A DNA stretch of 64,000 nucleotides from a virus (IMGVR_UViG_2681813421_000002:22586-86585), one strand, 5' to 3'; shown: positions 9,927 to 37,840, counted from the stretch's first letter. Numbers and translations are program-made. Notes: generated by a model not told the origin, from the sequence alone.

Positions 9927-10234
9927 ACACCTTTAACCACGGAGATGCCGTTTCCTGCACGATAGCGGCGGGGAACGGAATTCTCCATCAGGTCACGAAT
10001 TACTCCCGCCTCATGTAGTTCCTCTGTTTCCCAGTATCTGTTTGTCACCAGATCGAGGCTGGCTATGACCTTGTGCCGGTCATTCGGCATAGCCAATTTT
10101 TCTGCTATAACCATCAGTGAAAACTCTTCATCCAGTAGGATTTGATACCAGACTTTTGACAGTTCCAACTCTCTAATGAGGGTGAAGCGCCGCTCAAGTG
10201 TGGCGGCAGAATAAGTGAAATCTATTTTTTTCAT
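9923..10234 (-). CDS. Hypothetical protein downstream of antirepressor gene
   Basis: 103 aa ORF co-oriented with the ant-like gene. Confidence 0.4.
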   Translation of the reverse strand: MKKIDFTYSAATLERRFTLIRELELSKVWYQILLDEEFSLMVIAEKLAMPNDRHKVIASLDLVTNRYWETEELHEAGVIRDLMENSVPRRYRAGNGISVVKGV

Positions 10235-14938: not shown

Positions 14939-15699
14939 GGCTCCGCATGAAATTCTCCAAATTTTCTGAGTTGGTGAATCGTATTTTGTCCAATAACCAC
15001 AGCCATCGTCGCGATATGGATGTAACGATCGTTGTTCATTCGCCTGGCAGCATTGGTTCAACACCCTCAGTTGAGGTTCAGTCAATTCACGCTGGTTTTG
15101 ATTGGGATTCCGGGAAAGTGCTGATTTTCCCAGCACAGCCACTGACCACGCTAACACCAGAACAGATTACTGATATTACTGATAGTGTGCGCAAAGGTCA
15201 GTCCTGGCACGCATATCAGGAATACAAGAAGCATAAAGAGCAGTTGGAAAAATTATCGATTGAACTTGATGCCGCAAAACAGCGCATTGCAGAGCTGGAG
15301 GGTAATCGCGCGGCGCTGGCGGCGGAGAATGCAGGGCTGAATAAATTTATCGCACAGAGTTGCTACGTGTTTGATGGCGAGCAGGATGAAATATCTGATG
15401 CGTATATCTGCGCAACAGATGGAGGGATGCCGCAAACACCAGCCACCGATGCTTTTCTGGCTGAAGTGAAGACTGAAGCACGCAAGGAGGGCGCTTACTT
15501 TGTGGCGAACAGAATGCTGGCTGCCTGGGAAGCTGGTTTTATTGATGATACTGCGAAGAACGCCGCGGATATTGCCCGGATGATTCTTACCTCTACTGAG
15601 TTTATGGCTAATGCGCCGGAAGGCGATTTTGACCGCTCATTCTCTGATGGCGTTCTCGAAGATATCGCCGCCCAGCTTGGAAAAGGAGGCAAACAGTGA
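14935..15699 (+). CDS. Ead/Ea22-like protein
   Basis: 254 aa; coiled-coil centre and C-terminus ending QLGKGGKQ, as in 18811-19449. Confidence 0.5.
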   Translation: MRLRMKFSKFSELVNRILSNNHSHRRDMDVTIVVHSPGSIGSTPSVEVQSIHAGFDWDSGKVLIFPAQPLTTLTPEQITDITDSVRKGQSWHAYQEYKKHKEQLEKLSIELDAAKQRIAELEGNRAALAAENAGLNKFIAQSCYVFDGEQDEISDAYICATDGGMPQTPATDAFLAEVKTEARKEGAYFVANRMLAAWEAGFIDDTAKNAADIARMILTSTEFMANAPEGDFDRSFSDGVLEDIAAQLGKGGKQ

Positions 15700-15944
15700 G
15701 CAATTCAGCACGACTACAGCTTGGTTTTTCACCGCTATCAAAAACAATCGTGTTGGCAAAAATGCGTGACTTAGGGGATGGAACAAAACGTCGTGTCGGC
15801 AATGATCGCGGTCGCGATGTAACCAACGAGGCCGCACAACTCGTTTGGCATCTAGTCATGGCTGAAGGCGGTGAAATTAATTGGGAGCTGGATGATGGTT
15901 CTCGCATGGTATTAAAGGCAGAAAAGCAGGAGCCACCACAGTGA
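15696..15944 (+). CDS. Hypothetical protein
   Basis: 82 aa ORF in overlapping series. Confidence 0.35.
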   Translation: MSNSARLQLGFSPLSKTIVLAKMRDLGDGTKRRVGNDRGRDVTNEAAQLVWHLVMAEGGEINWELDDGSRMVLKAEKQEPPQ

Positions 15945-18527: not shown

Positions 18528-18623
18528 TTGGGATAAAGGCATGAGCATGGAGCCAGGCAGCACCATCCGCATTACTACAAAGGGAGGCCTGATAATCATG
18601 ATGTATCGGAAGGAGGAAGCCAA

Positions 18624-18818
18624 ATGAATAAAGCCTCACCAGCAGAGTTAAGAGCAAGTCTAGAGATGGCGCATAGCCTTGCTCAAATTGGAGTCAGGTT
18701 TGTACCAATTCCAGTTGAAACAGATGAAGAATTTCAAATGTTAGCGGCATCAGCAGCACAAAAGCTGGAAATCATGGCGAATAAAGCAGAGAAAGCGGAA
18801 GGAGCAGATAGTGAGTGA
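18624..18818 (+). CDS. Hypothetical protein
   Basis: 64 aa ORF. Confidence 0.35.
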   Translation: MNKASPAELRASLEMAHSLAQIGVRFVPIPVETDEEFQMLAASAAQKLEIMANKAEKAEGADSE

Positions 18819-19449
18819 AACTAACTATCAGGAGTTGCGCGAGGCAGCGGAGCAGGCAACGCAAGATGAATGGGTAGCATATATTTTGCCGGGTCATAAC
18901 GGCATTTATCCTGCGCGCACGTCTGAGGGTAGGCATTGCGGATACTTTATTGACTGGCCTGGCGTCTGTCAGGGGCGGGAGAGCATCAGCATCAGAACCT
19001 ACGCAGTGAATTGCAATGACGCATGGCTAAACACCGAAGGTGATGACATCTCCGGCTCATACGTTAAGTACAAAGACCATCAGGAAGTGGTTGCCGCTCT
19101 TGAGGCCAAGTGCGCGGCGCTGGCAGTGGAGAATGAGCTGGCTCGTAAGGCAGTTCAGGCATTCTGCGATGTTGTTGGCGACAACACTGAGGTTATCGCT
19201 GAGGTGGTTGGGCGAGATGGCGTTCTGGTTATTTTGAAGGCCATGAAGGCAACAGGAAATATGTCAGCCACCGACGCTTTCCTGTCTGAAGTACGGGCGC
19301 AGGGTGTGGAGATGTTTGCACAGTGGTGTAGAGGTGAGCGCGATTTTACTCTCATTGATGAGGATGTTGCTGATGCAGCGGCTTATGAAGAATGCGTAAA
19401 AAGAGCTGAATATTTCGCCGCCCAGCTTCGCAAAGGAGGCAAACAGTGA
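18811..19449 (+). CDS. Ead/Ea22-like protein
   Basis: 212 aa; shares near-identical block with 14028-14531. Confidence 0.5.
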   Translation: MSETNYQELREAAEQATQDEWVAYILPGHNGIYPARTSEGRHCGYFIDWPGVCQGRESISIRTYAVNCNDAWLNTEGDDISGSYVKYKDHQEVVAALEAKCAALAVENELARKAVQAFCDVVGDNTEVIAEVVGRDGVLVILKAMKATGNMSATDAFLSEVRAQGVEMFAQWCRGERDFTLIDEDVADAAAYEECVKRAEYFAAQLRKGGKQ

Positions 19450-20207
19450 GCAAGATTGACTATCAGGCACTGCGTGAGGCGGCAGAGAAGGCTACGAAAG
19501 GTAAGTGGGCTGTTGAATTCGACGATGAGATTTACTCCACTGACGGCATAAACCATGAGCAAATAGCTATGGTGTTCAGTGAAAACGAATCTCGTGATGC
19601 TGAATTCATCGCCGCAGCCAATCCGGCTACCGTCTTGGCGCTTCTGGATGAACGGGAAAGAAACCAGCAATACATAAAACGCCGCGATCAGGAGAACGAG
19701 GATATTGCGCTAACGGTAGGGAAGCTGAGAGTTGAGCTTGAGGAAGTAAAACAACACGCTGAAGAATTATCCGAAACCAAGGCTGTTCGTAACCAATGGC
19801 GGCCAGATATTTGCCCAATAACCGGACGTGCATTTTTCATGTGGATTGAGCATCCAACATTGGGAAATGTGCCGACATATGGTGGCCCATTAGATAGTTA
19901 CACCATTCCAACAAAGGACGGTGACGGTGAGTTTTCATGTGAGCGTTACGATCATGATTTTGGCGGTTGGGTAGAAAGCGAATGTCTTGGGTTATATCTG
20001 ATTGATGATAGAGAACAATGCAGGGTCTACGAACTGGAGGAACGCGTTAAGGAACTGGATGCTCGGGAAATATCGCTCCCGGAACGTAGCAGCATGCTTC
20101 ATCGAACAGATTTTCACGATGATTACCAAACGGTAATGGCATACAAAGTTTCTGAAGTCATCGCTGCAATCCGCGCCGCAGGCATTCGCATCAAAGGAGG
20201 TGAGTAA
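19446..20207 (+). CDS. Ea22-like N-terminal paralog with distinct C-terminal domain
   Basis: 253 aa; N-terminus YQALREAAEKAT parallels 18811-19449 N-terminus. Confidence 0.45.
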   Translation: MSKIDYQALREAAEKATKGKWAVEFDDEIYSTDGINHEQIAMVFSENESRDAEFIAAANPATVLALLDERERNQQYIKRRDQENEDIALTVGKLRVELEEVKQHAEELSETKAVRNQWRPDICPITGRAFFMWIEHPTLGNVPTYGGPLDSYTIPTKDGDGEFSCERYDHDFGGWVESECLGLYLIDDREQCRVYELEERVKELDAREISLPERSSMLHRTDFHDDYQTVMAYKVSEVIAAIRAAGIRIKGGE

Positions 20208-20382
20208 TGCGTGTGGCATGTATCGGCTTGTTACCGTACCCGACTCGTTTTTGGGCTTCTGCGCTAATTGCAAAGCCGTATGTCCTGATGGCTGACAACA
20301 TCATCCCGGCACCAAAGCGCCGCCATACCGGTATTGCAGCGGCACGACGAGCAGCAAAGAGACGCAGGAGAGCAAAGCGATG

Positions 20383-20559
20383 AAAAACCGTAAGGCAAAA
20401 CGACTTTTTTTACAGCGACCTGTGCGTGTGGTGGAGCTGGTTATTAGCAACCATAAGATAGCGGTACTCCATCCATTTGGTCAGGTGGCTTTTGCCGCAA
20501 AGCGTAAGCCTACTGCGTCACAGAACAGGCGGAAGAAAGGGAACGCTGTAAGATGAAAA
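20383..20559 (+). CDS. Small basic protein (tandem paralog 1)
   Basis: MKNRKAK... 58 aa; stop overlaps next ATG. Confidence 0.3.
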
Positions 20560-20741
20560 ACCGTAAAGCAAAGATTCTGTTAGTTCGTAGAAACGCTCCT
20601 GGCGTCTGGCAGTGGGTGAGACTCAGCAACCGACGGATGGGGTTGATGAAATATTACGGGATGATGGATTGTGGTTTTTGCAAAAAGCCCAGCGCGGCGC
20701 AAAACCGCTGGAAAAACCACTTGCGCACTAAAGGAGAGTGA
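20553..20741 (+). CDS. Small basic protein (tandem paralog 2)
   Basis: MKNRKAK... 62 aa with Cys pair. Confidence 0.35.
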   Translation: MKNRKAKILLVRRNAPGVWQWVRLSNRRMGLMKYYGMMDCGFCKKPSAAQNRWKNHLRTKGE

Positions 20742-20742
20742 T

Positions 20743-21258
20743 ATGGCGTTAACACACCGCGAACTCTGTCAGATTGCGTATAAGTTCCTTAAGCGCAACG
20801 GGTTCAAGGTTTGTTTTCATGACCGCTTTATAGCTGTAACCAGTACCGGAGAACAGCCAGATGCTATGGGATTCAGAAATTCAGCATCATGCCTGATAGA
20901 GGCGAAGTGTTCTCGTGCTGACTTGTTGGCAGATAGAAAAAAGCGTTTTCGTAAAAATCCATCTCTTGGAATGGGCGACTGGCGATTCTTTATTAGTGAG
21001 CCGGGAATTATTTCAGTTGAGGATTTACCACCTGGCTGGGGATTACTTCACGTTGTTAACGGAAGAGTACGGAAAGTACATGGGTGGCCCAAGGGTAATT
21101 GCTGTTGGGGTAATCCTGACGATAAGCCATTTACTGGAAATAAGCAGGTTGAATGCGATTACATGTTATCTGCATTAAGGCGCATGGAGTTGAGAGGGCA
21201 CCTTAATGAAATATATGACGGTGTAATTGTTAATAAGAAAGAAGGAAACGCAGCATGA
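20743..21258 (+). CDS. Hypothetical protein (possible PD-(D/E)XK-type nuclease fold)
   Basis: Start taken at MALTHREL; D...IEAK arrangement is suggestive only. Confidence 0.4.
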   Translation: MALTHRELCQIAYKFLKRNGFKVCFHDRFIAVTSTGEQPDAMGFRNSASCLIEAKCSRADLLADRKKRFRKNPSLGMGDWRFFISEPGIISVEDLPPGWGLLHVVNGRVRKVHGWPKGNCCWGNPDDKPFTGNKQVECDYMLSALRRMELRGHLNEIYDGVIVNKKEGNAA

Positions 21259-22661
21259 TCACTATTACCAAAGAACGCCTGCTGACAATCCAGCAGTGGC
21301 GCGAAACATACGGACCTGGTAGCAACGTTGTACTGCCAGCAGAAGAAGCGGAAGAACTGGCACGAATTGCTCTGGCATCGCTGGAAGCAAAACCAGTTGC
21401 TTATATTTTCAAACATCCGGCCGGGAAATTATTCTGGGCTTTAACGGATGAAAGCAATAAAGAGCAAGCGGACGTTATTCCTGTTTATGCTGCCGCGCCT
21501 GCGTCGGTTGTGCCGGATAATGCATCAGAGCCTCTTGCTTATGCTTACAAAGAGCTTACGCCTGAGATTATGCGCAACCATTTAGCTGTATTCGAGCGAT
21601 ATGGAATAGCCCCAAACGATAGCTCTACCACAATTCAGGCACTGCGAATCGCGCTGGATGGTATAGAGCGGAGCGACGCCATGCTTCAGTCCGGAAACTT
21701 TCGGGAAAACAAGAATTCGTCAACCAATAATTTTCGGGAAATCGCGGAAACGTCAACCAACTATCCGGTAATTCCTAGTGAGCTGTTGTCCGCAATCCTG
21801 AAGGTTGCCAAGATTCGTGCCGATTTCGATGATTTTGACGGTGACAGGCGAGGTATCGATGATTGTCTGGATGAGGCTGAGCAAGAGCTTATCGTTACCA
21901 TTAACAAATATGCCAGTCAGTTGGCAGCAGAACCGATAGCGACTAATGACGTTCGAGAGCAAACAGCCGTTCCGCCAGTTCCGGTAATGCAGGCTGATGT
22001 CGCGCAGGCAATTGAAAAACTCAAACGGAAATTAGTGGAATGCAATCGCTATAACTACTGTGCAGATGCAGTTAAAGGCGTAGAGGATGCCTGCCGTGCT
22101 GTTAGCTATAGCCAAGCCGACAATCAGCCAGCATCTGGCAACCAGGCTGCCGAATCCAATCGCGGTAATGAGTGGACCGGCAATCCTGATATTGATAACG
22201 CCATCATCATGCTCGATCGCATAGATACGCTGGAAAGTTGCGATGATGACCGTATTGAGGCTGTTAAGGCTGTTTTGCGTAGACTGGCTGGCAACTATCC
22301 GGATATTCCGGATAGTTCGGTGCCAGCGCCAGGAAAGGGCGTCACCGGTGAACGTATCCGCATTAAGCCGCATGTTTATCGCGAACTGGTTAACCGTCTC
22401 CACGATACAGCGATCAAGTGTGCTGGCACCCAGCAATTACGAGAAAGAATTAGCCGTGTTTTGGGCGACGTTATTACACCAGATCATCATAAACAAGCCG
22501 AGAAAAGTGACCTGGAAAGGTGTCACCTTGAGGCGGCATTAAACATTAAGCCGGGGCATACGCTTGGCATTATTGATGCACTATTGGTTCATAAGATGGC
22601 CAGGGCTTTATTGCCGCTGGTGGCTGAAAAGCATGAGGTGGACCATGCCAACGAAAGCTGA
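21255..22661 (+). CDS. Hypothetical protein with internal tandem repeat and C-terminal motif shared with 13113-13724
   Basis: 468 aa; repeated FRENK/FREIAE segment; YRELVNRLHD...GTQQLRER. Confidence 0.5.
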   Translation: MITITKERLLTIQQWRETYGPGSNVVLPAEEAEELARIALASLEAKPVAYIFKHPAGKLFWALTDESNKEQADVIPVYAAAPASVVPDNASEPLAYAYKELTPEIMRNHLAVFERYGIAPNDSSTTIQALRIALDGIERSDAMLQSGNFRENKNSSTNNFREIAETSTNYPVIPSELLSAILKVAKIRADFDDFDGDRRGIDDCLDEAEQELIVTINKYASQLAAEPIATNDVREQTAVPPVPVMQADVAQAIEKLKRKLVECNRYNYCADAVKGVEDACRAVSYSQADNQPASGNQAAESNRGNEWTGNPDIDNAIIMLDRIDTLESCDDDRIEAVKAVLRRLAGNYPDIPDSSVPAPGKGVTGERIRIKPHVYRELVNRLHDTAIKCAGTQQLRERISRVLGDVITPDHHKQAEKSDLERCHLEAALNIKPGHTLGIIDALLVHKMARALLPLVAEKHEVDHANES

Positions 22662-24758: not shown

Positions 24759-25853
24759 TCACTCAATGATTTTTTCTGCTGTCAGCCAGCTAATTTCTTG
24801 CCTGTCTTTCGGCGGTTTTAGCATGTGGGCGTATTCAGCGACATTCTCCCACGGAATTGTTTTTGCCCACTCAACGATAGCATTGTGATCTGCAGTGAAG
24901 AGTGGAATGGTGTGCGATTTCAACCATTCTAATGTCGTGACGCCATGTTTTTTGGCGTGGTGCTGCGCATGATGCCGGGCTATCACTCGTAATGGTATTG
25001 TCCATTCACTACCATCAGGCATCGAAAAGCGCATTGTCTTCGGCATATCTGATTCAAGAACAGCCTCCCTAATACCAGGGAACTCACCAAGAATCATACG
25101 ACGATAGTCATCACTATTTCGCCCGCCATACCTTTCGGCAAAATGATCAAGATATTCTTGGGTAATAAATGGTGAATCCTCCGCACTCAGCTTAATGGCT
25201 TTATATACACCACTCGGATTATCTTCAGCTAAAGCACGTCCATGATGTGAATCATAAAAAAAGCCTATTTCCTCTGGTGACGGAATTGAAGTGAGCAATA
25301 TGCGTGAATCACCACTAGTCATGCTTGCCCACACAATGCTGTATGCCCGATCGCTGATATGTGCGGAATCCACAATAATGAATAAAAGATGGTCGGCGTA
25401 GTGACCTGCAATGCTATCTTCATAGTTAAGGCGGAAGTTACAAAAGCACATTCCCCAAAATTCATTGAACATCAGACCGCTATCACCGACCTTAAAATAC
25501 TCAATGATAAAAGGTTGTTTTTTCAGCAATGCCTCCCAACATTGCCACACATATGCAACAATTCCTCTTTTGCAAACATTTGATTTTGGATAAACAATTA
25601 CTGTCCGGGAATCAGGATACATAATCGTATAAAGGGTACTAATAACAGCAAGCACTTGCGGTCGTCCGATCCCATACGGAGTGGTGACAGTAGCTTTTGC
25701 ATTATTGGGCTGTATAGCTTCAACAATTTGTTGTTGCTGGTGGCTTAAATCAATATCAAACAATTCTTTTGCTGCCAGTACCCAATTGTCTTTATATTTC
25801 TCCACCAGCGACAGCCAGCGCGGATCTTTATAAATATTGCTCTTAGTCGCCAT
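24759..25853 (-). CDS. Terminase large-subunit-like ATPase paralog with degenerate Walker A/B motifs
   Basis: Aligns with PacB-like N-terminal domain (SHQQQQI..., FYDSHH..., NPxG) but Walker A GHGTGKS is replaced by PYGIGRP and Walker B ILDEASGIS by IIVDSAHIS; start taken at MATKSNIYKD. Confidence 0.6.
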   Translation of the reverse strand: MATKSNIYKDPRWLSLVEKYKDNWVLAAKELFDIDLSHQQQQIVEAIQPNNAKATVTTPYGIGRPQVLAVISTLYTIMYPDSRTVIVYPKSNVCKRGIVAYVWQCWEALLKKQPFIIEYFKVGDSGLMFNEFWGMCFCNFRLNYEDSIAGHYADHLLFIIVDSAHISDRAYSIVWASMTSGDSRILLTSIPSPEEIGFFYDSHHGRALAEDNPSGVYKAIKLSAEDSPFITQEYLDHFAERYGGRNSDDYRRMILGEFPGIREAVLESDMPKTMRFSMPDGSEWTIPLRVIARHHAQHHAKKHGVTTLEWLKSHTIPLFTADHNAIVEWAKTIPWENVAEYAHMLKPPKDRQEISWLTAEKIIE

Positions 25854-26616: not shown

Positions 26617-27057
26617 TCACTCCACAACAAACCAGTCACAGGCCAGCAGGTCGCCAACTGAAGGCACCCACGGAACAACTACACCTTGTGCATTTTTTAA
26701 GGCGAAATAAGCACCATACGGAACGAGGTCGCCGGGGAAATATCCCTTAATGGCTTCCATTCGTGCCGGGTACTGTCCTTCAGGAACCAGCCAGCAGAAT
26801 TGGTTTTCGCCGTTCCACCCGCGTCGAGCAACTTTCTTGCCTTCCTTCAGCCACATCAGCGCGTCTGAAAAGTCGGCTGCTTCAAGGTCGATTTCTTCTT
26901 GCTGGGTGGTGATGCCACCAGCAGAAATAGTTACGCTCCCGGTAAGATTAATCATCACGCCGTTGTCATCCGTAATGATGACCGTGGTTCCATTTTTTTT
27001 GTGAGCTTTGTATTTGGGACGGAACTTAAAAAGCTCTTTCGTTGCCATGTTATTCAT
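26617..27057 (-). CDS. DUF2829-family protein (Tad2-like fold) with N-terminal extension
   Basis: 146 aa; FSDALMWLKEGKKVARRGWNG ... VGDLLACDWFVVE signature. Confidence 0.55.
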   Translation of the reverse strand: MNNMATKELFKFRPKYKAHKKNGTTVIITDDNGVMINLTGSVTISAGGITTQQEEIDLEAADFSDALMWLKEGKKVARRGWNGENQFCWLVPEGQYPARMEAIKGYFPGDLVPYGAYFALKNAQGVVVPWVPSVGDLLACDWFVVE

Positions 27058-27071
27058 AGTCTTTTCTCTGC

Positions 27072-27566
27072 TTATAACTTTTCGTACTGAAGCGGTGAAC
27101 GCTTAATTTCAAAGTGGCCTTCCGATGTGCTACCAAAGCCACCAGCACCACGCTCCGTTTCGTTGAGTTCCTCAACCTCGACTAGTGAGACTTGTTCAAC
27201 ACGCTCAAAAATTCCTTGCATGACAGCCATTCCAGGCTTGAGACAAACGCCTTCCCCGCCGGGATCAGTAATCAGTTTTGCCATGATTTCGCCGCGATAA
27301 TCGGAGTCGATAATTCCTACGCAGTTAGCCAGGCGAGTATGTTTTTTGCAGCCCAATCCTGATCGCGGATAGAGTTTCAGACACCAGCCGGGCGGGATCT
27401 CCATAGCCAGTCCGGTATACACCCACCAGCTTGAGGAAATTGCACCATTGCTATCGACGCATGGTTTTATTTCAACAGCCTCAAAATCCATCGCCGCCGA
27501 TCCGGAGGTGGCATAAGCTGGAAGTTTTGCTGCCGGATGTAGGCGTTTCACTTTTACGTAAATCAT
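27072..27566 (-). CDS. dut: dUTP diphosphatase (dUTPase)
   Basis: 164 aa; motifs PRSGLG, GIIDSDYRGEI, RGAGGFGSTS. Confidence 0.8.
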   Translation of the reverse strand: MIYVKVKRLHPAAKLPAYATSGSAAMDFEAVEIKPCVDSNGAISSSWWVYTGLAMEIPPGWCLKLYPRSGLGCKKHTRLANCVGIIDSDYRGEIMAKLITDPGGEGVCLKPGMAVMQGIFERVEQVSLVEVEELNETERGAGGFGSTSEGHFEIKRSPLQYEKL

Positions 27567-28039: not shown

Positions 28040-28380
28040 CGACGCCCCCTTGCAGGATATCGACCTGCATTAGTATCCGGTGCAATAAAGCCGGTAGTGG
28101 GGCGAGTGAAAGCGAGATTAATCTTCTCGACCATAGTGCGATAATTTTCCTGATAGTGGGCCAGGAGTTTTTCGGCGGCAATGATGGTTACTTTCCGGAC
28201 GTAGCTTTCTGCTTCCTCCAGATTTCGCCAGTTTTTTTCGAGGGTAAACACAGGGACGGCCTCAAGCCCGGTCATGATGCCGAACACAACGACAGCATGA
28301 CTGTTCTTAACACCAGCGGCGAAGGTTACGGTGTAACCATCCACCTTGAAGCGTCTTGATTCCGTGATTTGACTCTGCAA
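28036..28380 (-). CDS. Hypothetical protein (first gene of operon downstream of cre)
   Basis: 114 aa ORF immediately downstream of operator-like motif. Confidence 0.45.
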   Translation of the reverse strand: MQSQITESRRFKVDGYTVTFAAGVKNSHAVVVFGIMTGLEAVPVFTLEKNWRNLEEAESYVRKVTIIAAEKLLAHYQENYRTMVEKINLAFTRPTTGFIAPDTNAGRYPARGRR

Positions 28381-28435
28381 AGCACCCTCCTAAATAGGCG
28401 AGGGTACTTTACAGCAAAGATGTTAATCTAAAAAG

Positions 28436-28455
28436 ATGTGTTAGAAATTTAATTT
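28436..28455 (-). promoter_or_regulatory. Operator-like motif (AATTAAATTTCTAACACATC on minus strand)
   Basis: Between cre stop and start of the 114-aa gene. Confidence 0.5.
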
Positions 28456-29482
28456 ATAAATCCATCAGGCGGCTATTAGCCCCCACAGACACGCCGCCAC
28501 GGCGCAGATACCGCATAAGTGTTTCCGGTTTCTTCCAGGTTCCTTCCTGCATAATCTCCACCATAGAGACCTGCTTTTCAGCCATATCGATAGCGGCCCC
28601 GACGCGTGCACTATGCCCGGTCCACGTCCGGTATCTTCCTTTGTTTGGCGTAGCATCTCCTTTATTCAGCAACACCCAGGCGTCGCTGAATATTTTCTCC
28701 ATTGCAGGTGCAGTAAGGGGCGTTATCGTGATCCTGGCCTTATTGCTACGGTGTATCGGCGGGAACAGCACTGCGTCAGGATGTTCGCGAAGCCCGGAAA
28801 CATCCAGCCAGTCATTCAGCACAGCGGTAGTGCGACGGGAAAGCACCTTATCAAGCCCGGCGGCGGTCGTTATTGTCTTCGTGTGTGAAATATGTAGCGT
28901 GACAGTGTCACCTGTTTGGTCCAGATCTCCTACACGAATACGCGAGATTTCCGACATACGCATCAGCGTATTGTATGCAACAAAGAGAAAAGCCCGGTTG
29001 CGCAGGTCCACCAGCCGTTCAGACCTGGACAACAGGACGTCGAGCAGTTTCAGATCGTCCCACCGCAGCGGTATAGCCTGGCCTGTTCGTTCGCCTTTTT
29101 CAGTTGCCGCTTCGCGCCGGATGCGCCGCATAGCCAGAGAAACACTTTTATCATCCGAAAGTGGTGGAAGGCCACAATGCGAAAGCAGCATGTTCAGCAT
29201 GGCGTAGTGCTTATCAATGGTGGTCGAAGCCAGATCGGCATCATGCAGCTGAAGAAAATACTCGCGGGCCATTTCTGGTGAGATCGGAAACCAGGCAAGC
29301 TGGCGAGCGTGACACCAGCGCGCCCAGGAATGAAACACCAAACGGAGGTCGCGCAGAGTATTCGGCGCATAAGCTCCCTGGTCATTCATGAACCGCATAA
29401 AGTTTTCTGCGGCTTCCTGGTACTCTTTGCCAATGTTGCGCAGAAAACCACCGGAACTGCCAGAGATAATTAATTCACCCAT
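28454..29482 (-). CDS. cre: Cre-family tyrosine recombinase (diverged from P1 Cre)
   Basis: 342 aa; colinear with P1 Cre including catalytic-region motifs (AYNTLMRMSEISRIRVGDL; WTGHSARVGAA; GTW; MRYLR) but many substitutions. Confidence 0.85.
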   Translation of the reverse strand: MGELIISGSSGGFLRNIGKEYQEAAENFMRFMNDQGAYAPNTLRDLRLVFHSWARWCHARQLAWFPISPEMAREYFLQLHDADLASTTIDKHYAMLNMLLSHCGLPPLSDDKSVSLAMRRIRREAATEKGERTGQAIPLRWDDLKLLDVLLSRSERLVDLRNRAFLFVAYNTLMRMSEISRIRVGDLDQTGDTVTLHISHTKTITTAAGLDKVLSRRTTAVLNDWLDVSGLREHPDAVLFPPIHRSNKARITITPLTAPAMEKIFSDAWVLLNKGDATPNKGRYRTWTGHSARVGAAIDMAEKQVSMVEIMQEGTWKKPETLMRYLRRGGVSVGANSRLMDL

Positions 29483-29633
29483 GAAACTATTTGACCTCTA
29501 TATACAGATGACGCTACGCGAAAAATATAAAAATGACAGGGTAGCTATAAGTTAATTTTCAAAATACAAGCCTTTGATTCGAGGCACGTATTTTCAGTGA
29601 TGTCAACACTGTTCATCTACACATGATTATAGC

Positions 29634-29667
29634 CTAACTTTAAATAATGCCAATTATTTAAAGTTAT
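29634..29667. other. lox-like recombination site (13-bp inverted arms, 8-bp spacer)
   Basis: CTAACTTTAAATA-ATGCCAAT-TATTTAAAGTTAT; same architecture and partial identity with loxP, located about 150 bp upstream of cre. Confidence 0.65.
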
Positions 29668-29762
29668 AAAATGCCGATTTTTTTTAATCCATCATAGATT
29701 GATGATGACCAGTAACACGTTGCCTTCATGGTCTTTAATTTGCGAAGTGTGGTTTCTACGGT

Positions 29763-29779
29763 TGGTTTTCTAAAATTGA
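29763..29779 (+). promoter_or_regulatory. Operator-like motif (TTGGTTTTCTAAAATTG)
   Basis: Variant core TTTCTAAAA upstream of repressor-candidate gene. Confidence 0.35.
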
Positions 29780-29845
29780 TGACAAAAAATCACAGTTCGA
29801 TCCTTTACTCACCCTGTTATTCGACATAAATTTGTCATAGTAATT

Positions 29846-29864
29846 TTATGTTAGAAAACTAAAT
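29846..29864 (-). promoter_or_regulatory. Operator-like motif (ATTTAGTTTTCTAACATAAA on minus strand)
   Basis: 13 bp upstream of the start codon of 29877-30914. Confidence 0.5.
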
Positions 29865-29876
29865 CGAGTAGGAATA

Positions 29877-30914
29877 ATGAGTAAGAAGTCGATCGAGAAA
29901 GAGTACAAACGGTTCCTGCAAACCGCTGAACGGTGGAAAGAGCTGGTGGTCGCAAACTCTGTTTTCCATGATACCAGTTATGCTGGCGAGGAATTCCGCC
30001 ATGTTGCATTAACGCATGACCAAAACATATTAGAAGAAGCTGAAAAATGTCTTGCTGAATGGAAAGCCTTCGTTGACATGTGCCGCGATGCCGACGGCAA
30101 AGCGTCGAACATTGTTGAGTCTGTATATTCTCCGATCCCATTCATCATTGAGGACACCAATCAAAGCACGCATGTCGTTGTGCAAAGCGCTACAACAACA
30201 CGTACATTTACACGTGAACAATTGCTAAAAAAATACGACAAAATCATAAAGAAAAGCCTGAAAAATAGGGTTTTTTCTCAAATCGTAGGTGCTCTTGAAG
30301 AAGAACAGCGCTTCTTTGAAGCTGAGCCTGAAGGCGAGATCTACCGGGCGCGTAAAGAGGCATATACAGATGTTGTGCTGACAACAAACATCGAAGGCAG
30401 CAATGCCCTTTCTCGCTTTAGAGTTGGCGCACATGGCGCATTGGTTTTCGCAAGACTACCGAAGACAACGATCCCCGTTGTCAATAATGTTGGTGAACGC
30501 CGGAGCATTACAATTTATTCTGGCGTCGAATCGGTACCATGCAGCCTTCTCGGCGATTTTAACTTATATCGTGTTCGTGACCTGGAAAAACACCAGCCAA
30601 GCTACGTTGCGAAGTCGTACATCTTAAGGAACATCGATATTCGCAATGAAAGCCTTAAGCAGAAATCCGCTAAGATGCTGGAGGATGCCGATCCGGCTAT
30701 TCGCCATATCATTGAACGTAAGATACGTACATCACGTGAAGCAATGGCAAGGTTGGATAAAATGGATCTGGAATTGTTAGACGTAATGATGGCCTCTGGA
30801 GACGACCTGACCGGCATTAAACTGAATGAAGCTCGTAAAAAATACGGCAAAGCAATCGAAGAACGTTACGGATACACATTCCCCCAAACGCAGTACGCCG
30901 CGAAGCTCTGGTAA
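29877..30914 (+). CDS. Candidate C1-type immunity repressor (positional analog of P1 c1)
   Basis: 345 aa; lies between lox/cre and pacB, convergent with pacB, flanked upstream by two operator-like motifs; I do not recognise the protein sequence itself. Confidence 0.4.
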   Translation: MSKKSIEKEYKRFLQTAERWKELVVANSVFHDTSYAGEEFRHVALTHDQNILEEAEKCLAEWKAFVDMCRDADGKASNIVESVYSPIPFIIEDTNQSTHVVVQSATTTRTFTREQLLKKYDKIIKKSLKNRVFSQIVGALEEEQRFFEAEPEGEIYRARKEAYTDVVLTTNIEGSNALSRFRVGAHGALVFARLPKTTIPVVNNVGERRSITIYSGVESVPCSLLGDFNLYRVRDLEKHQPSYVAKSYILRNIDIRNESLKQKSAKMLEDADPAIRHIIERKIRTSREAMARLDKMDLELLDVMMASGDDLTGIKLNEARKKYGKAIEERYGYTFPQTQYAAKLW

Positions 30915-30923: not shown

Positions 30924-30946
30924 GCCCCGCATCGCGGGGCTTTTAT
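30924..30946 (+). terminator. Rho-independent terminator
   Basis: GCCCCGC-ATC-GCGGGGC followed by TTTTAT. Confidence 0.55.
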
Positions 30947-32451
30947 ATATCCAGATCCGGCATTTCGATATCCGCCAGAACCTGATCTCGGAAAGTTGCC
31001 ATTTCGGCACCAATATCTTCATTAGCAGGCACATAGTCCACCAGCATAGTGAAGCAGTAGGTATCCCATCGGTCAGGCGATTTGATGTTTAGCTTTTGCC
31101 GCATGTGCTCTTTGCGCATCATCGCCATTTTCCCTTCCTCATTCAGTAAAAAGGGGATTTTTGACGCTTGCTCTGCCGTTTTAGGGTCACTGTCTATCCG
31201 CATACGCCCTGACTTTATGGCATCACGCGCCATAATATTTGCGTAGGCACGCTGATTAACAAATCGCTCCCTGTCTTTGTTCGCAAACATGGGTTTTCCC
31301 CACCGAATACGTACCGGGTTCGCACCACGACGTACCAACTGCGCACACGTATCAGAACCAAAACCATCGGCATCAACCGCGATTGTTATATTCGGGTATT
31401 TTTCCGGCGTACATTCGTTATATATAAAGTCAGCAAAGGCCAATGGGTCCATAGTGCCAGGCATCTCCATTACCTTAAAGTTAACAACGCGCCGCTTATC
31501 CCTGTGACCAGATACCTTGCAGATGTTGAGGACCGACTTATCTCGCCCATTACCAACGTCAGCCGTTGCCACCCATCCCCAGTTTTTCTCCAACAACACC
31601 TTGCGGCGAGCAGCGCGATCGCATTCATCACGACCAAGCAAATAGCCGTTAATTTCTCGTGGGAACTGACCAAGCACCTTGACCATATACTCAATAGAAT
31701 CGCGCCCACCATATTCCAGAAGCTTCTGCCTGATGAATTGTGGTGTGACGAACGGTGATTCTTCCGAGTTAAGAACAATTGCTGTCCAGATCCCTTTCGG
31801 GTTGTCTGGGGTTTTTGCTTGAGAATGGTGCGAATCGTAGAAATAACCACTTGGCCTTGTTGGCTGGGATAGCATCAACATCCGGTTATCTTCTTCAGTA
31901 AGAGCACCGGTCATTACGCCGATCGCCTTATCAGATATACCAGATGCTTCATCCAGAATTAGAAGCAAATGTGCCGCATGTTCCCCCGCCAGCGCTTCTT
32001 CGTTGCCGAGTCGATAACCTTTGCAGAGAACTTCCCAAATCCCCTTACGGGAGCGCTCATAAAACATGGTGTCAGAGAGGACAAAATAGGTCTGCAACCA
32101 CCCATGACGCTTAACTGCATTCGCCCAATACTGTTTAACGTATTTGAATACGCCTGTTTTTACCTGGCCTATCTTGTTAGCAACAATGATGACACGGGCA
32201 TCGGGGAACAGGATCATAAAAATCAACAGCAACATCGCGGTAAGGGACGACTTCCCAGTTCCGTGTCCGGACGTGACGGTCGTCCTACTCCCCGTTTCCT
32301 GCACGGACTGAATGATCTGCTGCTGCTGGTGGGAGGGGAACATCCCAAAAATATCGACAACAGCCTGGGTAAAGTTGTAGCGGTATTTGATTACCATATC
32401 GCGCCAGCGTGGATCGCTGGTGACGCATTTAATCTTGCGCCCTCCAGCCAT
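30943..32451 (-). CDS. pacB: Terminase large subunit (PacB-like)
   Basis: 502 aa; Walker A GHGTGKSS, Walker B LLLILDEA, C-terminal nuclease-type acidic residues. Confidence 0.85.
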   Translation of the reverse strand: MAGGRKIKCVTSDPRWRDMVIKYRYNFTQAVVDIFGMFPSHQQQQIIQSVQETGSRTTVTSGHGTGKSSLTAMLLLIFMILFPDARVIIVANKIGQVKTGVFKYVKQYWANAVKRHGWLQTYFVLSDTMFYERSRKGIWEVLCKGYRLGNEEALAGEHAAHLLLILDEASGISDKAIGVMTGALTEEDNRMLMLSQPTRPSGYFYDSHHSQAKTPDNPKGIWTAIVLNSEESPFVTPQFIRQKLLEYGGRDSIEYMVKVLGQFPREINGYLLGRDECDRAARRKVLLEKNWGWVATADVGNGRDKSVLNICKVSGHRDKRRVVNFKVMEMPGTMDPLAFADFIYNECTPEKYPNITIAVDADGFGSDTCAQLVRRGANPVRIRWGKPMFANKDRERFVNQRAYANIMARDAIKSGRMRIDSDPKTAEQASKIPFLLNEEGKMAMMRKEHMRQKLNIKSPDRWDTYCFTMLVDYVPANEDIGAEMATFRDQVLADIEMPDLDI

Positions 32452-33815
32452 TAATCATCCTCCGGCGGTTCTATCGCGATATCTTCATCTCCGGCGTCAT
32501 ACCCTGCATCAGATGCATCATAATCACCGTAAATTTCAGCCGTTGCCGAAGGGTCAATATCCAGCTCTTCGTCGTTGGCCTCGAATTCTCCAGCTTTACG
32601 CTCGCCATTGCGGTCGTAATCTCCGCACCCCAATTCTTCAACAATGGTTGCCACATCCGCCCGGCGCTCTGCCAGCCATTGCGGATGGTTAGCCTGAAGC
32701 GTCGCAAACTCCCTTGCCTCTTTGTCCAGCTGTTCATCATCAACATCATTGACGTCAGAAACAGGTGGTTCGAGAAGAGTGATAGCTTTCGCCGCGCGCG
32801 CCGCGAGGATAGCCGGGACGCTGACCCCCTGGCGCTCGATGTATTCAGCAACACCGATATCATCCAGTTCCTCGCGCTCACGCATACGTATAGCGGCGGC
32901 GATAACTCTGGCTGCGCGTGCGTCAGCGCCAATGCGATATTCAATCTCTTTGCCACGCTGTTCGGCCTGTAGGCGTGCTAATTCGAGTTTTTCTCTGGCC
33001 TCAGCCTCTTTGAATGCTTGCTGGCGAGCGCTCTGACGAAGCTTTTCATCCCCCTGTCGCAGCTTTTGTTCGGACTGATATATAGCTGCCAACCTACTGA
33101 TAAAATCATTCATGTAGTAGGCAGCGTCACTGATTAGACCGAGAAGGCGCTGCCCAGGGTGCATTCCTTCTGGCTCTTTATCGCCCAAGGCGTCTATTTC
33201 CGCCTGTAGACGTTCGGCCTCCTGATCAACAATGCTTTGATACTGAAGTGCGCGCTCTTGCGCCATTTGAATTGCTAACCGCAGGTGTTCTTCTGCGCCG
33301 TTCTTCATCATATCGCGAGCCACATTCGTAGTGGGCAATGTGGCACGCTGCACAGCACCGCCAGGGATCATTGCTGAAGATCCCTCAATTTTTGGGGCGC
33401 TTTTATCTTCTTCGGGGATCATTTTCGCCATTTTTTCGCGCAATGATCTCCTGACAGATTCTTTTATCTCATTGTTATTATTTGCATTATTTTCATGATC
33501 CGAAGTTTTCTTTCTCGGCATACTTCGGAAAGAACCTGCGCCCTGCGAATTGTCAATTTCTGTAAATTTTGTTTTTTCTGCACCCTCTTCCAGCTTTTTT
33601 GTTGCTCTTCCCGCCCGTTTTTTTTCAGGTGATTTGGTGCTTTTTTTTGTTGTCTTTACCTGCGACCGCACCTCATTTTTTTTCATATTGAGATGCTTTC
33701 TGGCTGTATTGAAGCTAAGGCCATGCTCCTCACAGTATTCCTTTACAGTGATCCCTTTTTCTTCACGCAACGCTATAAAGCGGGCGCGGTGCTCCTCCCA
33801 ATTAACCAGACTCAT
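32451..33815 (-). CDS. pacA: Terminase small subunit/pac-recognition protein (PacA-like)
   Basis: 454 aa; N-terminal HTH-like region, acidic C-terminus, 1-bp stop/start overlap with pacB, internal GATC cluster. Confidence 0.7.
   Translation of the reverse strand: MSLVNWEEHRARFIALREEKGITVKEYCEEHGLSFNTARKHLNMKKNEVRSQVKTTKKSTKSPEKKRAGRATKKLEEGAEKTKFTEIDNSQGAGSFRSMPRKKTSDHENNANNNNEIKESVRRSLREKMAKMIPEEDKSAPKIEGSSAMIPGGAVQRATLPTTNVARDMMKNGAEEHLRLAIQMAQERALQYQSIVDQEAERLQAEIDALGDKEPEGMHPGQRLLGLISDAAYYMNDFISRLAAIYQSEQKLRQGDEKLRQSARQQAFKEAEAREKLELARLQAEQRGKEIEYRIGADARAARVIAAAIRMREREELDDIGVAEYIERQGVSVPAILAARAAKAITLLEPPVSDVNDVDDEQLDKEAREFATLQANHPQWLAERRADVATIVEELGCGDYDRNGERKAGEFEANDEELDIDPSATAEIYGDYDASDAGYDAGDEDIAIEPPEDD
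33360..33505. other. pac-like packaging site: cluster of five GATC-containing elements within pacA
   Basis: GATC at 33366, 33379, 33417, 33445 and 33497, several as TGATC(C/T) in both orientations; reminiscent of the P1 pac hexamer repeats. Confidence 0.4.
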
Positions 33816-35733: not shown

Positions 35734-35809
35734 TGGTGGCCCCTACCGGACTTGAACCGGTGACCGTGCGATTATGAGTCGCCAGCTCTAACCACTGAGC
35801 TAAAGGGCC
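35734..35809 (-). tRNA. tRNA with CAU anticodon, Ile2 (lysidine) type
   Basis: 76 nt with encoded CCA; near-identical in acceptor, D and anticodon arms to E. coli ileX-type tRNA as I recall it. Confidence 0.75.
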
Positions 35810-35836
35810 GGATTACTGCCAATTTTGCTTACGCTT

Positions 35837-36664
35837 TTATTTCACCGGAACAAACGGAACAGCGGCATTACTGGTCATATACTGCGGTAATGTACCGTTC
35901 CATTTGTTGATCGCTTCCAACTCCATAACACCGGGGTTCTGGCGCAGAGCTTCACCACGTAAACGAATGGCATCAGCTTCGGCCTGGGCTTTTGTGCGAA
36001 TAGCATCAGCCTGTCCGGCAGCTTCCGCGCGCAGCATGTTGGCCTCTGCTTCACGTTGTTTGACCTCTTGCTCGCGTTGCAGGGTTTTTTGGTTTGCCGT
36101 AACTTTGGCGTTAATACTGTCAATAACTGTTGGCGGATATTCTGGCTTACCTACATAAGAGAGGCTCATCACCTGAATGCCGATTGGCGTCATTTCTTCC
36201 TGAATGTCTTTAAGGGCTGCATCAAGCAATTCAGATTTGCCACCGTCGATAAATTTGTCGGTGGTCATTTTGCTGGCTAACCGGTTCAGAGCATCTGCAA
36301 CCTTCTGGCGTAGATCGGTATCAGTAATATCATCTACACCTTTGCGATAGGTCTGAAATACCGTTGTGACTTTTGCTGGATCAACCTTGTAGGCTACGCC
36401 GATGTGGTAACCAATGGTTGTTCCGTCGCTCATCTGGAAGCTGAACGGCTCATCGTATGTCTTCATTTGCTTAAAGGTCGGGAAGATATAAACTTCAGTA
36501 TTCAAGCCTGTCCAGTAGCGACCAACACCAACTACTTCACCGATACCTTTATCATCCCCCAGCTTATTTACTTTGATCCCTACGTTACCTGGCTCTACCC
36601 GATCGCATCCGGTCAGACATAAAGAACCCAAAATAATCGCTGCACTAATCAACGTTTTTTTCAT
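35837..36664 (-). CDS. plp: Prohibitin-like SPFH/band-7 lipoprotein (Plp)
   Basis: 275 aa; lipoprotein signal LISAAIILGSLCLTGC, SPFH-like core and Ala/Glu-rich coiled-coil tail. Confidence 0.75.
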   Translation of the reverse strand: MKKTLISAAIILGSLCLTGCDRVEPGNVGIKVNKLGDDKGIGEVVGVGRYWTGLNTEVYIFPTFKQMKTYDEPFSFQMSDGTTIGYHIGVAYKVDPAKVTTVFQTYRKGVDDITDTDLRQKVADALNRLASKMTTDKFIDGGKSELLDAALKDIQEEMTPIGIQVMSLSYVGKPEYPPTVIDSINAKVTANQKTLQREQEVKQREAEANMLRAEAAGQADAIRTKAQAEADAIRLRGEALRQNPGVMELEAINKWNGTLPQYMTSNAAVPFVPVK

Positions 36665-37144: not shown

Positions 37145-37231
37145 TGGCGGAGAGTAATGGAATCGAACCATCATCGCTTGCGCAATGGGACGGTTTTCAA
37201 GACCGCTTGAGCACCATGCTCCCTACTCTCC
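37145..37231 (-). tRNA. Type II tRNA with long variable arm, anticodon UGA (Ser-like)
   Basis: 87 nt; acceptor GGAGAGT/ACTCTCC, anticodon stem GCGGT/ACCGT with loop CUUGAAA, T-arm GATGG-TTCGATT-CCATT, G73 and CCA. Confidence 0.5.
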
Positions 37232-37365
37232 CGTTATTGTGGCGACCGGTGCTGATCTCCGGCTTGCGGTTATTTCAGACTCTCACGGGCGTTTAATTGC
37301 CCCGCCGAACAGCTCTTTTCCGCAATAGCTGCAATGTCTTTCGCGCATCAGCCTGCGCATTCACC

Positions 37366-37457
37366 ACAATGTTGAGAACACTGGTTGTCACGCTGCAACG
37401 CAACATTTATTCATAGATTGGGATATGACCCCGTTACGCCAGTGTTCTCAACGTTGT
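37366..37457. repeat. 19-bp inverted repeat (18/19 match) separated by 54 bp
   Basis: ACAATGTTGAGAACACTGG ... CCAGTGTTCTCAACGTTGT in the tRNA-cluster intergenic region. Confidence 0.55.
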
Positions 37458-37603
37458 AGTGCCGGTTACGGTTCCGGCCAGGCCTCTTCCTCAACGGGGT
37501 GTTCTCCATACGGACTACCGTTTATTGGTCGTTCCTGCGGTTTATGTTGTGAAGCCAGATGCTTATCTTCTGGTTGCTTCAAAGAGCTGCACTTCATCAC
37601 AAC

Positions 37604-37677
37604 GGTAAGGGTACTTCGTAGGGATTCGAACCCTCTGCCAAGCACGGCGATCTCCGACGTCGCAAAATACCCTTACC
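37604..37677 (-). other. tRNA-like element with T-arm motif but non-canonical secondary structure
   Basis: Contains AGGGTTCGAATCCCT and a 10-bp terminal pairing (GGTAAGGGTA/TACCCTTACC) but I could not fit a standard cloverleaf; directly abuts tRNA-Thr. Confidence 0.25.
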
Positions 37678-37685
37678 TGTTGTGT

Positions 37686-37761
37686 TGGTGCCGGTTAACG
37701 GACTCGAACCGCTGACATCCTGCTTACAAGGCAGGCGCTCTACCAACTGAGCTAAACCGGC
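37686..37761 (-). tRNA. tRNA-Thr (anticodon UGU)
   Basis: 76 nt; GCCGGTT acceptor, GCTCAGTTGGTAGAGC D-arm, loop CUUGUAA, T-arm GGTTCGAGTCC, CCA. Confidence 0.8.
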
Positions 37762-37763
37762 AT

Positions 37764-37840
37764 TGGCGATGGTGGGTGGATTCGAACCACCGACCGACAG
37801 CTTAGAAGGCTGCTGCTCTATCCTACTGAGCTACACCATC
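37764..37840 (-). tRNA. tRNA-Arg (anticodon UCU)
   Basis: 77 nt; loop CUUCUAA, T-arm GGTGGTTCGAATCCACC, CCA end. Confidence 0.75.

What the first reader, a model, noticed from the sequence alone, without database searches (positions are those of the whole stretch)
28454..29667. Diverged Cre recombinase paired with a co-diverged lox-like site
The 342-aa protein is colinear with P1 Cre and keeps the catalytic-region motifs, but is heavily substituted. About 150 bp upstream of its start sits a 34-bp site, CTAACTTTAAATA-ATGCCAAT-TATTTAAAGTTAT, with the exact loxP architecture. The arms share ATAACTT and GAAGTTAT-type ends with loxP but differ in the central arm positions and in the spacer. A Cre/lox pair with altered site specificity would be orthogonal to Cre/loxP.
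Basis: partly seen in the sequence, partly recalled or inferred. Interest (0 to 1): 0.75.

Follow-up and report, generated by a model that had tools for sequence, protein, structure and literature searches.

The report
Dre recombinase and its rox site

Summary
A 342-aa Cre homologue is encoded at 28454-29482 (-). A palindromic site lies 151-152 bp upstream of its start codon. It is not new. The protein is 338/342 identical to Dre of phage D6. The 32-bp core at 29635-29666 (TAACTTTAAATAATGCCAATTATTTAAAGTTA) is base-for-base the published wild-type rox site. The GenBank D6 records annotate both features at the matching position. The window is colinear with the D6 genome at 94-98% identity, so it is a D6-like plasmid prophage. 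The exact protein sequence is already deposited for E. coli. Over 100 sequenced plasmids carry the locus.

All six Cre catalytic residues are kept. So are the published rox-specificity residues (R44, A258, P259, K263).

Within the Dre clade the site does not drift with the protein; the arms are unchanged down to 69% protein identity.

One possibly undescribed detail: the only near-consensus sigma-70 promoter in the window has its -35 hexamer inside the rox spacer, points at dre and is conserved. This suggests autoregulation.

Verdict: already known; low interest.

The parts
28454..29482 (-). dre: 342-aa Cre-type tyrosine recombinase. It is a natural allele of phage D6 Dre with S2G, T253I, R275G and S342L.
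   Evidence: ORF. 338/342 identical to D6 Dre AAV84949.1 / ASR76376.1. Catalytic R175, K202, H290, R293, W316 and Y325 align to Cre R173, K201, H289, R292, W315 and Y324. Specificity residues are R44, A258, P259 and K263. The exact sequence is in NCBI as E. coli EFD0714794.1 and others.
29635..29666 (.). rox: the 32-bp Dre crossover site. Arms are at 29635-29648 and 29653-29666, and the 4-bp asymmetric spacer GCCA (TGGC in dre orientation) is at 29649-29652.
   Evidence: Perfect 14-4-14 inverted repeat. Unique in the window. Identical to the misc_recomb 'rox' of AY753669 and to wild-type roxP 5'-TAACTTTAAATAATGCCAATTATTTAAAGTTA-3' in PMC4777119. The native flanking bases match those quoted in PMC3082901.
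29626..29653 (-). Putative sigma-70 promoter directed at dre (inferred, not shown). The -35 TTGGCA is at 29653-29648, spanning the rox spacer and arm junction. A 16-nt spacer follows. The -10 TATAAT is at 29631-29626, 3 nt outside rox.
   Evidence: 11/12 consensus match. It is the only match of 11/12 or better on either strand of the 64-kb window; 1.6% of shuffled intergenic sequences produce one. The -10 sits at the same offset in all Dre-clade loci, including the 69%-identity relative, while the bases between it and rox vary.
29483..29634 (-). 152-nt leader between rox and the dre start codon. It holds a second promoter-like element (TTGACA 29606-29601, 18-nt spacer, TCGAAT 29582-29577). It also holds a conserved block at about 29512-29544.
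   Evidence: Alignment of leaders from relatives at 51-100% protein identity. Function not tested.
29877..30914 (+). Context: c1 prophage repressor, transcribed divergently from dre across rox.
   Evidence: Annotated c1 in AY753669 and MF356679 at the colinear position. No Pfam hit.
30943..33815 (-). Context: pacB (30943-32451) and pacA (32451-33815) terminase genes. The pacA start lies 4165 bp from the rox centre, against 4271 bp from pacA to lox in P1.
   Evidence: D6 annotation, P1 annotation, distances.

Best explanation
The locus is the Dre/rox site-specific recombination module of a D6-like plasmid prophage of E. coli.

Mechanism: Dre is a Cre-type tyrosine recombinase. By homology with Cre, two monomers bind the two inverted repeats of each rox site and two sites synapse in a tetramer. 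Tyr325 then cleaves and exchanges strands pairwise across the central region through a Holliday intermediate. No accessory protein is needed.

Specificity: selectivity for rox over loxP comes largely from R44, P259 and K263 in place of Cre K43, R259 and G263.

Role in the prophage (inferred by analogy with P1 Cre/lox and from conserved gene order): the single rox site lets Dre resolve plasmid dimers into monomers for stable inheritance. It may also let Dre circularise terminally redundant phage DNA after infection.

What is shown and what is inferred: sequence identity with a biochemically characterised system is shown here. Activity and heterospecificity come from the literature on the D6 allele. 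The natural role is inferred.
For: - DNA at 28300-29900 is 97.6% identical to the D6 immC record AY753669, which annotates dre, rox and c1 there.
- The protein is 338/342 identical to D6 Dre.
- The 394-bp dre-c1 intergenic region differs from D6 at 8 positions (mean column identity 99% as reported), and the rox core is identical.
- The core equals published wild-type roxP (PMC4777119).
- The window is colinear with the complete D6 genome MF356679, running D6 63.3 kb, through the record ends, to 32 kb, at 94-98% identity. The D6 record's coordinate origin lies in rox.
- The catalytic hexad is intact, matching the Dre residues listed in PMC4777119. Specificity residues are of the Dre type (PMC7438526).
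- No cross-reaction between Cre/loxP and Dre/rox was seen in E. coli (PMC3082901) or in B. subtilis (PMC12331466).
- The gene order pacA-pacB-c1-site-recombinase and the roughly 4.2-kb pacA-to-site distance match P1.
- A related D6-like plasmid has been described as using its cre/lox-type module for multimer resolution (PMC6799933).
- The locus is common: 123 PLSDB plasmids and 106 of 5426 complete E. coli genomes hold at least 80% of it. In the E. coli set, 124 of 127 matching places are on plasmids.
Against: - Nothing contradicts the identification.
- This allele carries four substitutions relative to the tested D6 protein (S2G, T253I, R275G, S342L), and its activity has not been measured. 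None lies at a catalytic or published specificity position.
- The natural roles in D6-type phages (dimer resolution, cyclisation) rest on analogy with P1. The original D6 papers were not available in the held library.
- The P1-type pac hexamer cluster is not present in this pacA, so the position of pac relative to rox is unverified.
Confidence: 0.97

Rival explanations
1. This is a previously unrecognised Cre/lox-like pair with a new specificity, which is the novelty implied by the first reader.
For: Only 40% identity to Cre and a site that differs from loxP.
Against: The site is identical to published rox and the protein is 98.8% identical to Dre. The public D6 records annotate both. The exact protein is already in NCBI and UniRef.
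Confidence: 0.01
2. This natural allele (S2G, T253I, R275G, S342L) is functionally different from D6 Dre: inactive, weaker, or with shifted or relaxed site preference.
For: All four substitutions are absent from both D6 and the closest plasmid copy examined, pGA_Eco1. T253I lies a few residues before the helix carrying A258, P259 and K263. Dre is reported to be relatively promiscuous on related sites (PMC10250229), so small changes could matter.
Against: - The ORF is full length and all catalytic and specificity residues are intact.
- The cognate rox next to it is unchanged.
- The same allele occurs on 8 contigs, including an 89.7-kb plasmid-sized one. A plasmid copy differing by one residue also exists.
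- Homologues at 88-93% and at 69% identity keep the same rox arms, so the fold tolerates far more change without retargeting.
Confidence: 0.05
3. The palindrome is mainly a transcriptional control element (promoter or operator for dre) and not a recombination site in this element.
For: A near-consensus sigma-70 promoter overlaps it, with the -35 hexamer in the spacer, and it is conserved.
Against: The identical 32-bp sequence is an experimentally proven, sufficient Dre substrate (PMC4777119; PMC3082901). The two roles are compatible, so this works as an added function and not as an exclusive alternative.
Confidence: 0.01

Closest known systems
Dre/rox of Escherichia phage D6 (GenBank AY753669, MF356679; Sauer & McDermott 2004, as cited in PMC3082901)
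   Same: Same gene, same 32-bp site, same 152-bp spacing and same neighbours (orf117, dut, c1, pacB, pacA). Protein 338/342 identical. rox and its immediate flanks are identical.
   Different: Four amino-acid substitutions (S2G, T253I, R275G, S342L). About 2.4% nucleotide divergence. The host element differs from D6 in several replaced accessory segments.
Cre/loxP of phage P1
   Same: Same family and length (343 versus 342 aa). 40% identity, colinear. Identical catalytic hexad. Single site upstream of the recombinase gene, between it and c1. pacA lies about 4.2 kb away. No accessory factors are needed, per the literature.
   Different: - The site differs at 3 central positions per arm and in the spacer, with a 14-4-14 instead of a 13-8-13 repeat structure.
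- Specificity residues are K43R, T258A, R259P and G263K.
- No cross-recombination.
- P1 has cra and multiple Dam-regulated promoters between lox and cre, and none embedded in lox. The Dre locus has a promoter-like element overlapping rox.
Other Cre-type systems (Panto/pox, Vika/vox, Nigri/nox, VCre/VloxP, SCre/SloxP, YR series)
   Same: Same family and the same logic: a palindromic site within 1 kb of the recombinase gene (PMC10250229). Pantoea plasmid homologues are about 45% identical to the window protein. Dre is reported to recombine pox, which has 2 mismatches per half-site.
   Different: These are distinct proteins (28-46% identity) with distinct cognate sites. The window locus is not one of them.

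Membership tests
Tyrosine recombinase superfamily (Pfam Phage_integrase, PF00589) | Catalytic domain match above the curated threshold | tested here: met
   PF00589 scores 60.0 bits against a cut-off of 27.1, E = 3.2e-16, residues 157-327.
Tyrosine recombinase superfamily (Pfam Phage_integrase, PF00589) | Catalytic R-K-H-R-(H/W)-Y residues present | tested here: met
   R175, K202, H290, R293, W316 and Y325 align with Cre R173, K201, H289, R292, W315 and Y324. The same Dre residues are listed in PMC4777119.
Cre-type simple recombinases | Full-length colinear homology to Cre, covering both the N-terminal and the catalytic domain | tested here: met
   phmmer against PDB Cre chains gives E = 1e-68 over residues 22-341. 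The global alignment gives 40% identity with only short gaps.
Cre-type simple recombinases | Short palindromic target of about 32-34 bp with an asymmetric centre, close to the gene | tested here: met
   14-4-14 perfect inverted repeat, 152 bp upstream, unique in the window.
Cre-type simple recombinases | Recombination without accessory proteins or host factors | not testable with these tools
   Reported for D6 Dre in E. coli, B. subtilis and mammalian cells (PMC3082901; PMC12331466; PMC4777119). Not measured for this allele.
Dre/rox (phage D6) | Protein essentially identical to D6 Dre | tested here: met
   338/342 identical to AAV84949.1 / ASR76376.1.
Dre/rox (phage D6) | Target equals the 32-bp rox sequence | tested here: met
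   Window 29635-29666 is identical to the rox of AY753669 and to published wild-type roxP.
Dre/rox (phage D6) | rox-specificity residues (Dre equivalents of Cre K43R, R259P, G263K) | tested here: met
   R44, P259 and K263, plus A258, against the residues named in PMC7438526.
Dre/rox (phage D6) | Genomic context: pacA-pacB-c1-rox-dre in a P1/D6-type plasmid prophage | tested here: met
   Colinear with D6 across the rox junction at 94-98% identity.
Dre/rox (phage D6) | Heterospecificity: active on rox and inactive on loxP | not testable with these tools
   Shown in the literature for the D6 allele. Expected here because the specificity residues and the site are unchanged.

The most novel reading that the evidence does not exclude
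The rox site also serves as the -35 region of the main dre promoter, so Dre bound to rox would shut off its own transcription. This would be a built-in negative autoregulatory loop that P1 Cre/loxP lacks, and I found no description of it in the literature I could search.

Supporting points: TTGGCA, a 16-nt spacer, then TATAAT is the only match of 11/12 or better in the 64-kb window. The -10 keeps its exact offset in every Dre-clade locus down to 69% protein identity, while the bases between it and rox vary.

The original 2004 paper could not be read, so this may already be described there.
Probability: 0.3. Interest if true: 0.3.

Novelty: already known. Interest (0 to 1): 0.07.

Why it matters
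An orthogonal Cre-like recombinase and site pair is very useful. For that reason Dre/rox is already a standard tool for dual-recombinase lineage tracing, intersectional genetics and marker removal. Finding it again in a D6-like plasmid prophage adds nothing fundamental.

Three modest by-products of this check:
(a) Natural Dre alleles and homologues at 69-99.7% identity all keep the same rox arms. They form a ready-made panel of variants that likely act on the same target.
(b) Natural spacer variants exist (TAGC, GGGG).
(c) The site may double as the promoter of its own recombinase gene. That would matter for understanding how plasmid prophages keep recombinase levels low. It is of little concern to users of the 32-bp site, because the -10 element lies outside it.

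Tried and rejected
- Tried to read the primary papers: Sauer & McDermott 2004 (DOI and PMC534624), Lobocka 2004 (PMC523184) and Gilcrease & Casjens 2018 (PMC5800970). None is held, so statements about them rest on secondary citations and on GenBank annotation.
- Looked for a solved Dre structure. The PDB copy holds only Cre and Cre-derived chains, best E = 1e-68.
- Looked for extra rox or half-rox sites in the window. There is only one weak 12/14 half-site at 50508, within chance expectation.
- The rox-pattern scan of representative genomes gave one hit, in a Clostridia MAG (L014). It is part of a longer AT-rich palindrome with spacer TAAT and no Dre homologue nearby, so I judged it coincidental.
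- Looked for a P1-type pac site (a TGATCR hexamer cluster) in pacA. P1 shows it and the window does not, although five GATC sites cluster at pacA nt 316-447.
- Considered a terminator or attenuator hairpin in the dre leader (inverted repeat at 29561-29594). It is weak (85% complementary), the terminator-like call is on the opposite strand, and I did not test its conservation in relatives. Dropped.
- Considered gradual co-divergence of site and protein within the Dre clade. Rejected, because the arms are invariant from 100% to 69% identity. A clearly different site appears only with the 51% Citrobacter homologue.
- A literature search for a rox-embedded promoter or Dre autoregulation found nothing relevant.

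Full report
**1. The observation**

The minus-strand ORF at 28454-29482 encodes 342 aa. It matches Cre recombinase chains in the PDB over residues 22-341 at E = 1e-68. It hits the Pfam Phage_integrase catalytic domain at 60 bits against a cut-off of 27.1. The N-terminal SAM-like domain scores just below threshold.

The repeat finder reports a perfect inverted repeat of 14 nt, a 4-nt spacer and 14 nt at 29635-29666. The 32-mer is unique in the window even with three mismatches allowed, with none expected by chance. One correction: read as 13-8-13, the two arms differ at their outermost base, and the real symmetry is 14-4-14.

**2. What it is**

A megablast of 28300-29900 against the phage collection returns only Escherichia phage D6, at 97.6% identity. 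The D6 immC record AY753669 annotates 'dre: tyrosine recombinase', 'region of crossover (rox) site for Dre recombinase' and 'c1' under the match. The complete D6 genome MF356679 places its coordinate origin in the middle of rox.

- **Protein:** identical to D6 Dre at 338 of 342 positions. The differences are S2G, T253I, R275G and S342L.
- **Intergenic region:** the 394-bp dre-c1 region differs from D6 at 8 positions (mean column identity 99% as reported). None of these is in rox or within about 28 bp of it.
- **Site:** window 29635-29666 equals the wild-type roxP oligonucleotide 5'-TAACTTTAAATAATGCCAATTATTTAAAGTTA-3' used in PMC4777119. The native flanking bases match those quoted for D6 in PMC3082901.

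**3. The surrounding element**

A local BLAST of the whole window against the 91,159-bp D6 genome shows colinearity from D6 63.3 kb, through the record ends, to about 32 kb. Identity is 94-98%, interrupted by about a dozen replaced or inserted segments of 0.1-2.7 kb. The window is therefore part of a D6-like plasmid prophage.

The locus is common:
- 123 PLSDB plasmids hold at least 80% of the 1.6-kb query. They come mostly from E. coli, with some from Salmonella and Shigella.
- 106 of 5426 complete E. coli genomes also hold at least 80% of it. In that collection, 124 of 127 matching places are on plasmids.
- The exact 342-aa sequence is already in NCBI and UniRef as an E. coli 'tyrosine-type recombinase/integrase'. 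It has been seen on 8 contigs, the longest 89.7 kb, and sits in a 90%-identity cluster of 289 members.

**4. How it works**

A global alignment with P1 Cre, translated from NC_005856, gives 40% identity. All six catalytic residues are conserved: Cre R173, K201, H289, R292, W315 and Y324 correspond to R175, K202, H290, R293, W316 and Y325. These are the Dre residues listed in PMC4777119.

Published work identified Cre K43, R259 and G263 as the residues that discriminate loxP from rox. Swapping them to the Dre residues R, P and K retargets Cre to rox, and T258A improves the result (PMC7438526). The window protein carries R44, A258, P259 and K263. None of its four allele-specific substitutions falls on a catalytic or specificity position.

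Against loxP, the site differs at three central positions in each arm and in the spacer. This agrees with the published '3 of 13 bp per half-site'.

Heterospecificity has been shown experimentally. Cre is inactive on rox and Dre is inactive on loxP (PMC7438526). No cross-reactivity was detected among Cre, Dre, VCre and SCre in E. coli (PMC3082901) or between Cre and Dre in B. subtilis (PMC12331466). Dre does show some promiscuity on closely related sites such as pox (PMC10250229).

The strand-exchange mechanism is inferred from homology with Cre: a tetrameric synapse, Tyr325 as nucleophile and a Holliday intermediate. No Dre structure is in the PDB copy searched.

**5. Natural role (inferred)**

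The order pacA-pacB-c1-site-recombinase is the same as in P1. The distance from the pacA start to the site centre is 4165 bp here and 4271 bp in P1. In P1, established knowledge is that Cre/lox circularises terminally redundant infecting DNA and resolves plasmid dimers. A related D6-like Salmonella plasmid has been described as using this module for multimer resolution (PMC6799933). I assign the same roles here by analogy. They were not tested, and the P1-type pac hexamer cluster is absent from this pacA.

**6. Natural variation**

A tblastn search of the protein against PLSDB gives discrete classes:
- at least 95% identity: 100 plasmids
- 90-95%: 10 plasmids
- 80-90%: 82 plasmids
- 51%: one Citrobacter portucalensis plasmid
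- about 45%: Pantoea plasmids
- about 41%: Cre, in hundreds of P1-like plasmids

In representatives at 88-99.7% identity, the 32-bp rox core is identical and lies exactly 152 bp from the ATG, although the flanks are heavily diverged. The same core and offset hold in most of the 22 IMG/VR contigs found with a spacer-free rox pattern.

- **L020:** this IMG/VR contig encodes a 69%-identical homologue. Its site has identical arms and a one-base spacer change, TGGC to TAGC.
- **L027:** this contig has a spacer of GGGG next to a normal dre.
- **L012:** only this 51% Citrobacter homologue has a clearly different site, ATAACTATAGATA-ATGGGGGT-TATATAAAGTTAC.

So 'co-divergence' describes the Cre-to-Dre step. 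It is not a gradual process within the Dre clade.

**7. A detail that may be new**

The promoter scan found one sigma-70-like site in 28300-30000. It is on the dre strand, with -35 TTGGCA at 29653-29648, inside the rox spacer and arm junction. A 16-nt spacer follows, then -10 TATAAT at 29631-29626. The match is 11 of 12.

- It is the only match of 11/12 or better on either strand of the whole window. Only 1.6% of shuffled intergenic sequences contain one.
- The -10 hexamer keeps its exact offset in all Dre-clade loci. L009 has TATGAT, and L020 has TTAGCA with TATAAT. The three bases between rox and the -10 vary: GGC, AGC, GTA, TCA, GGT.
- P1 annotates its cre promoters outside lox.

Dre bound at rox would be expected to occlude this promoter, giving negative autoregulation. 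This is inference only. A literature search found nothing on it, but the original 2004 paper could not be read.

**8. Verdict**

The object is the well-known Dre/rox system in one of its many natural D6-like hosts. Novelty: already known. Interest: low.

Noticed in passing
window 29626-29653 (-): A near-consensus sigma-70 promoter (TTGGCA, 16-nt spacer, TATAAT; 11/12) points at dre. Its -35 lies inside the rox spacer and its -10 lies 3 nt outside rox. It is the only match of 11/12 or better in the 64-kb window, and its offset is conserved in all Dre-clade loci down to 69% protein identity. This suggests Dre autoregulation through rox occupancy.
   Followed up: partly
window 29512-29544 and 29577-29606 (-): The dre leader holds a conserved block, CTACCCTGTCATTTTT..TTTTTCGCGTAGCG, about 30-60 nt upstream of the ATG. 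The 69% homologue keeps it and the 51% homologue keeps part of it. The leader also holds a second promoter-like element (TTGACA, 18-nt spacer, TCGAAT), conserved in relatives at 88% identity or more. Function unknown.
   Followed up: no
L020:3706-3737 with L020:2524-3552 (-); L027:12405-12436: Natural rox spacer variants. IMGVR_UViG_3300009011_000012 carries a 69%-identical Dre homologue whose site has rox-identical arms and spacer TAGC. IMGVR_UViG_2579778873_000001 has spacer GGGG next to a 338/342 Dre; this could be a real variant or a sequencing error.
   Followed up: partly
L012:965-996 and L012:1174-2199 (+), Citrobacter portucalensis plasmid NZ_CP099371: A 341-aa homologue, 51% identical to Dre, has a diverged and imperfect lox/rox-like site, ATAACTATAGATA-ATGGGGGT-TATATAAAGTTAC, 177 bp upstream. 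It may be a distinct Cre-type pair. 'Citrobacter' does not occur in the main text of the YR-series paper PMC10250229.
   Followed up: partly
window 24759-25853 (-): A 364-aa ORF in a segment absent from D6 is a diverged paralogue of the PacB terminase ATPase domain: 37% identity over 258 aa, E = 3e-56. Its Walker A motif looks degenerate (GIGRPQ against GTGKSS in PacB), and it has an unrelated C-terminal tail of about 100 aa. No Pfam hit. About 34 D6-like plasmids carry it at 95% identity or more, and some P1-like phages carry a 51% second copy. It is always annotated hypothetical. It may modulate or interfere with packaging.
   Followed up: partly
window 26617-27057 (-): A 146-aa protein with a Tad2-like (Thoeris anti-defence 2) domain, PF11195, E = 5.9e-23. 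It sits next to a dUTPase at 27072-27566, three genes downstream of dre.
   Followed up: no
window 32451-33815 (-), pacA: The P1-type pac signature, clusters of TGATCR hexamers flanking the cut site, is clear in P1 pacA. It is absent here, where there is a single hexamer. Five plain GATC sites cluster at pacA nt 316-447, so the pac site of D6-type phages probably differs from P1's.
   Followed up: partly
window 35734-36664 and 56257-59298: Segments not shared with D6. One holds a tRNA-Met (35734-35809) and an SPFH/Band-7 protein (35837-36664). The other holds a 1013-aa ddrB-ParB-domain ORF (56257-59298), much longer than D6's ddrB-like gene of 1365 bp.
   Followed up: no
window 8948-9963, 14138-15938, 18546-21970: Further mosaic blocks absent from D6. 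They include two adjacent Ead/Ea22-like proteins (18811-19449 and 19446-20207) and several ORFs with no Pfam match.
   Followed up: no
window 37145-37840: ARAGORN calls tRNA-Ser(tga), tRNA-Thr(tgt) and tRNA-Arg(tct) on the minus strand. The colinear D6 record annotates tRNA-Ser, Thr and Asn on the plus strand at the matching coordinates. This may be an annotation or strand discrepancy.
   Followed up: no
L014:6381-6412 (Clostridia MAG OZ007016): The only hit to the rox-arm pattern among representative bacterial genomes is part of a longer AT-rich palindrome with spacer TAAT and no Dre homologue nearby. I judged it a coincidental hairpin and not a rox site.
   Followed up: yes
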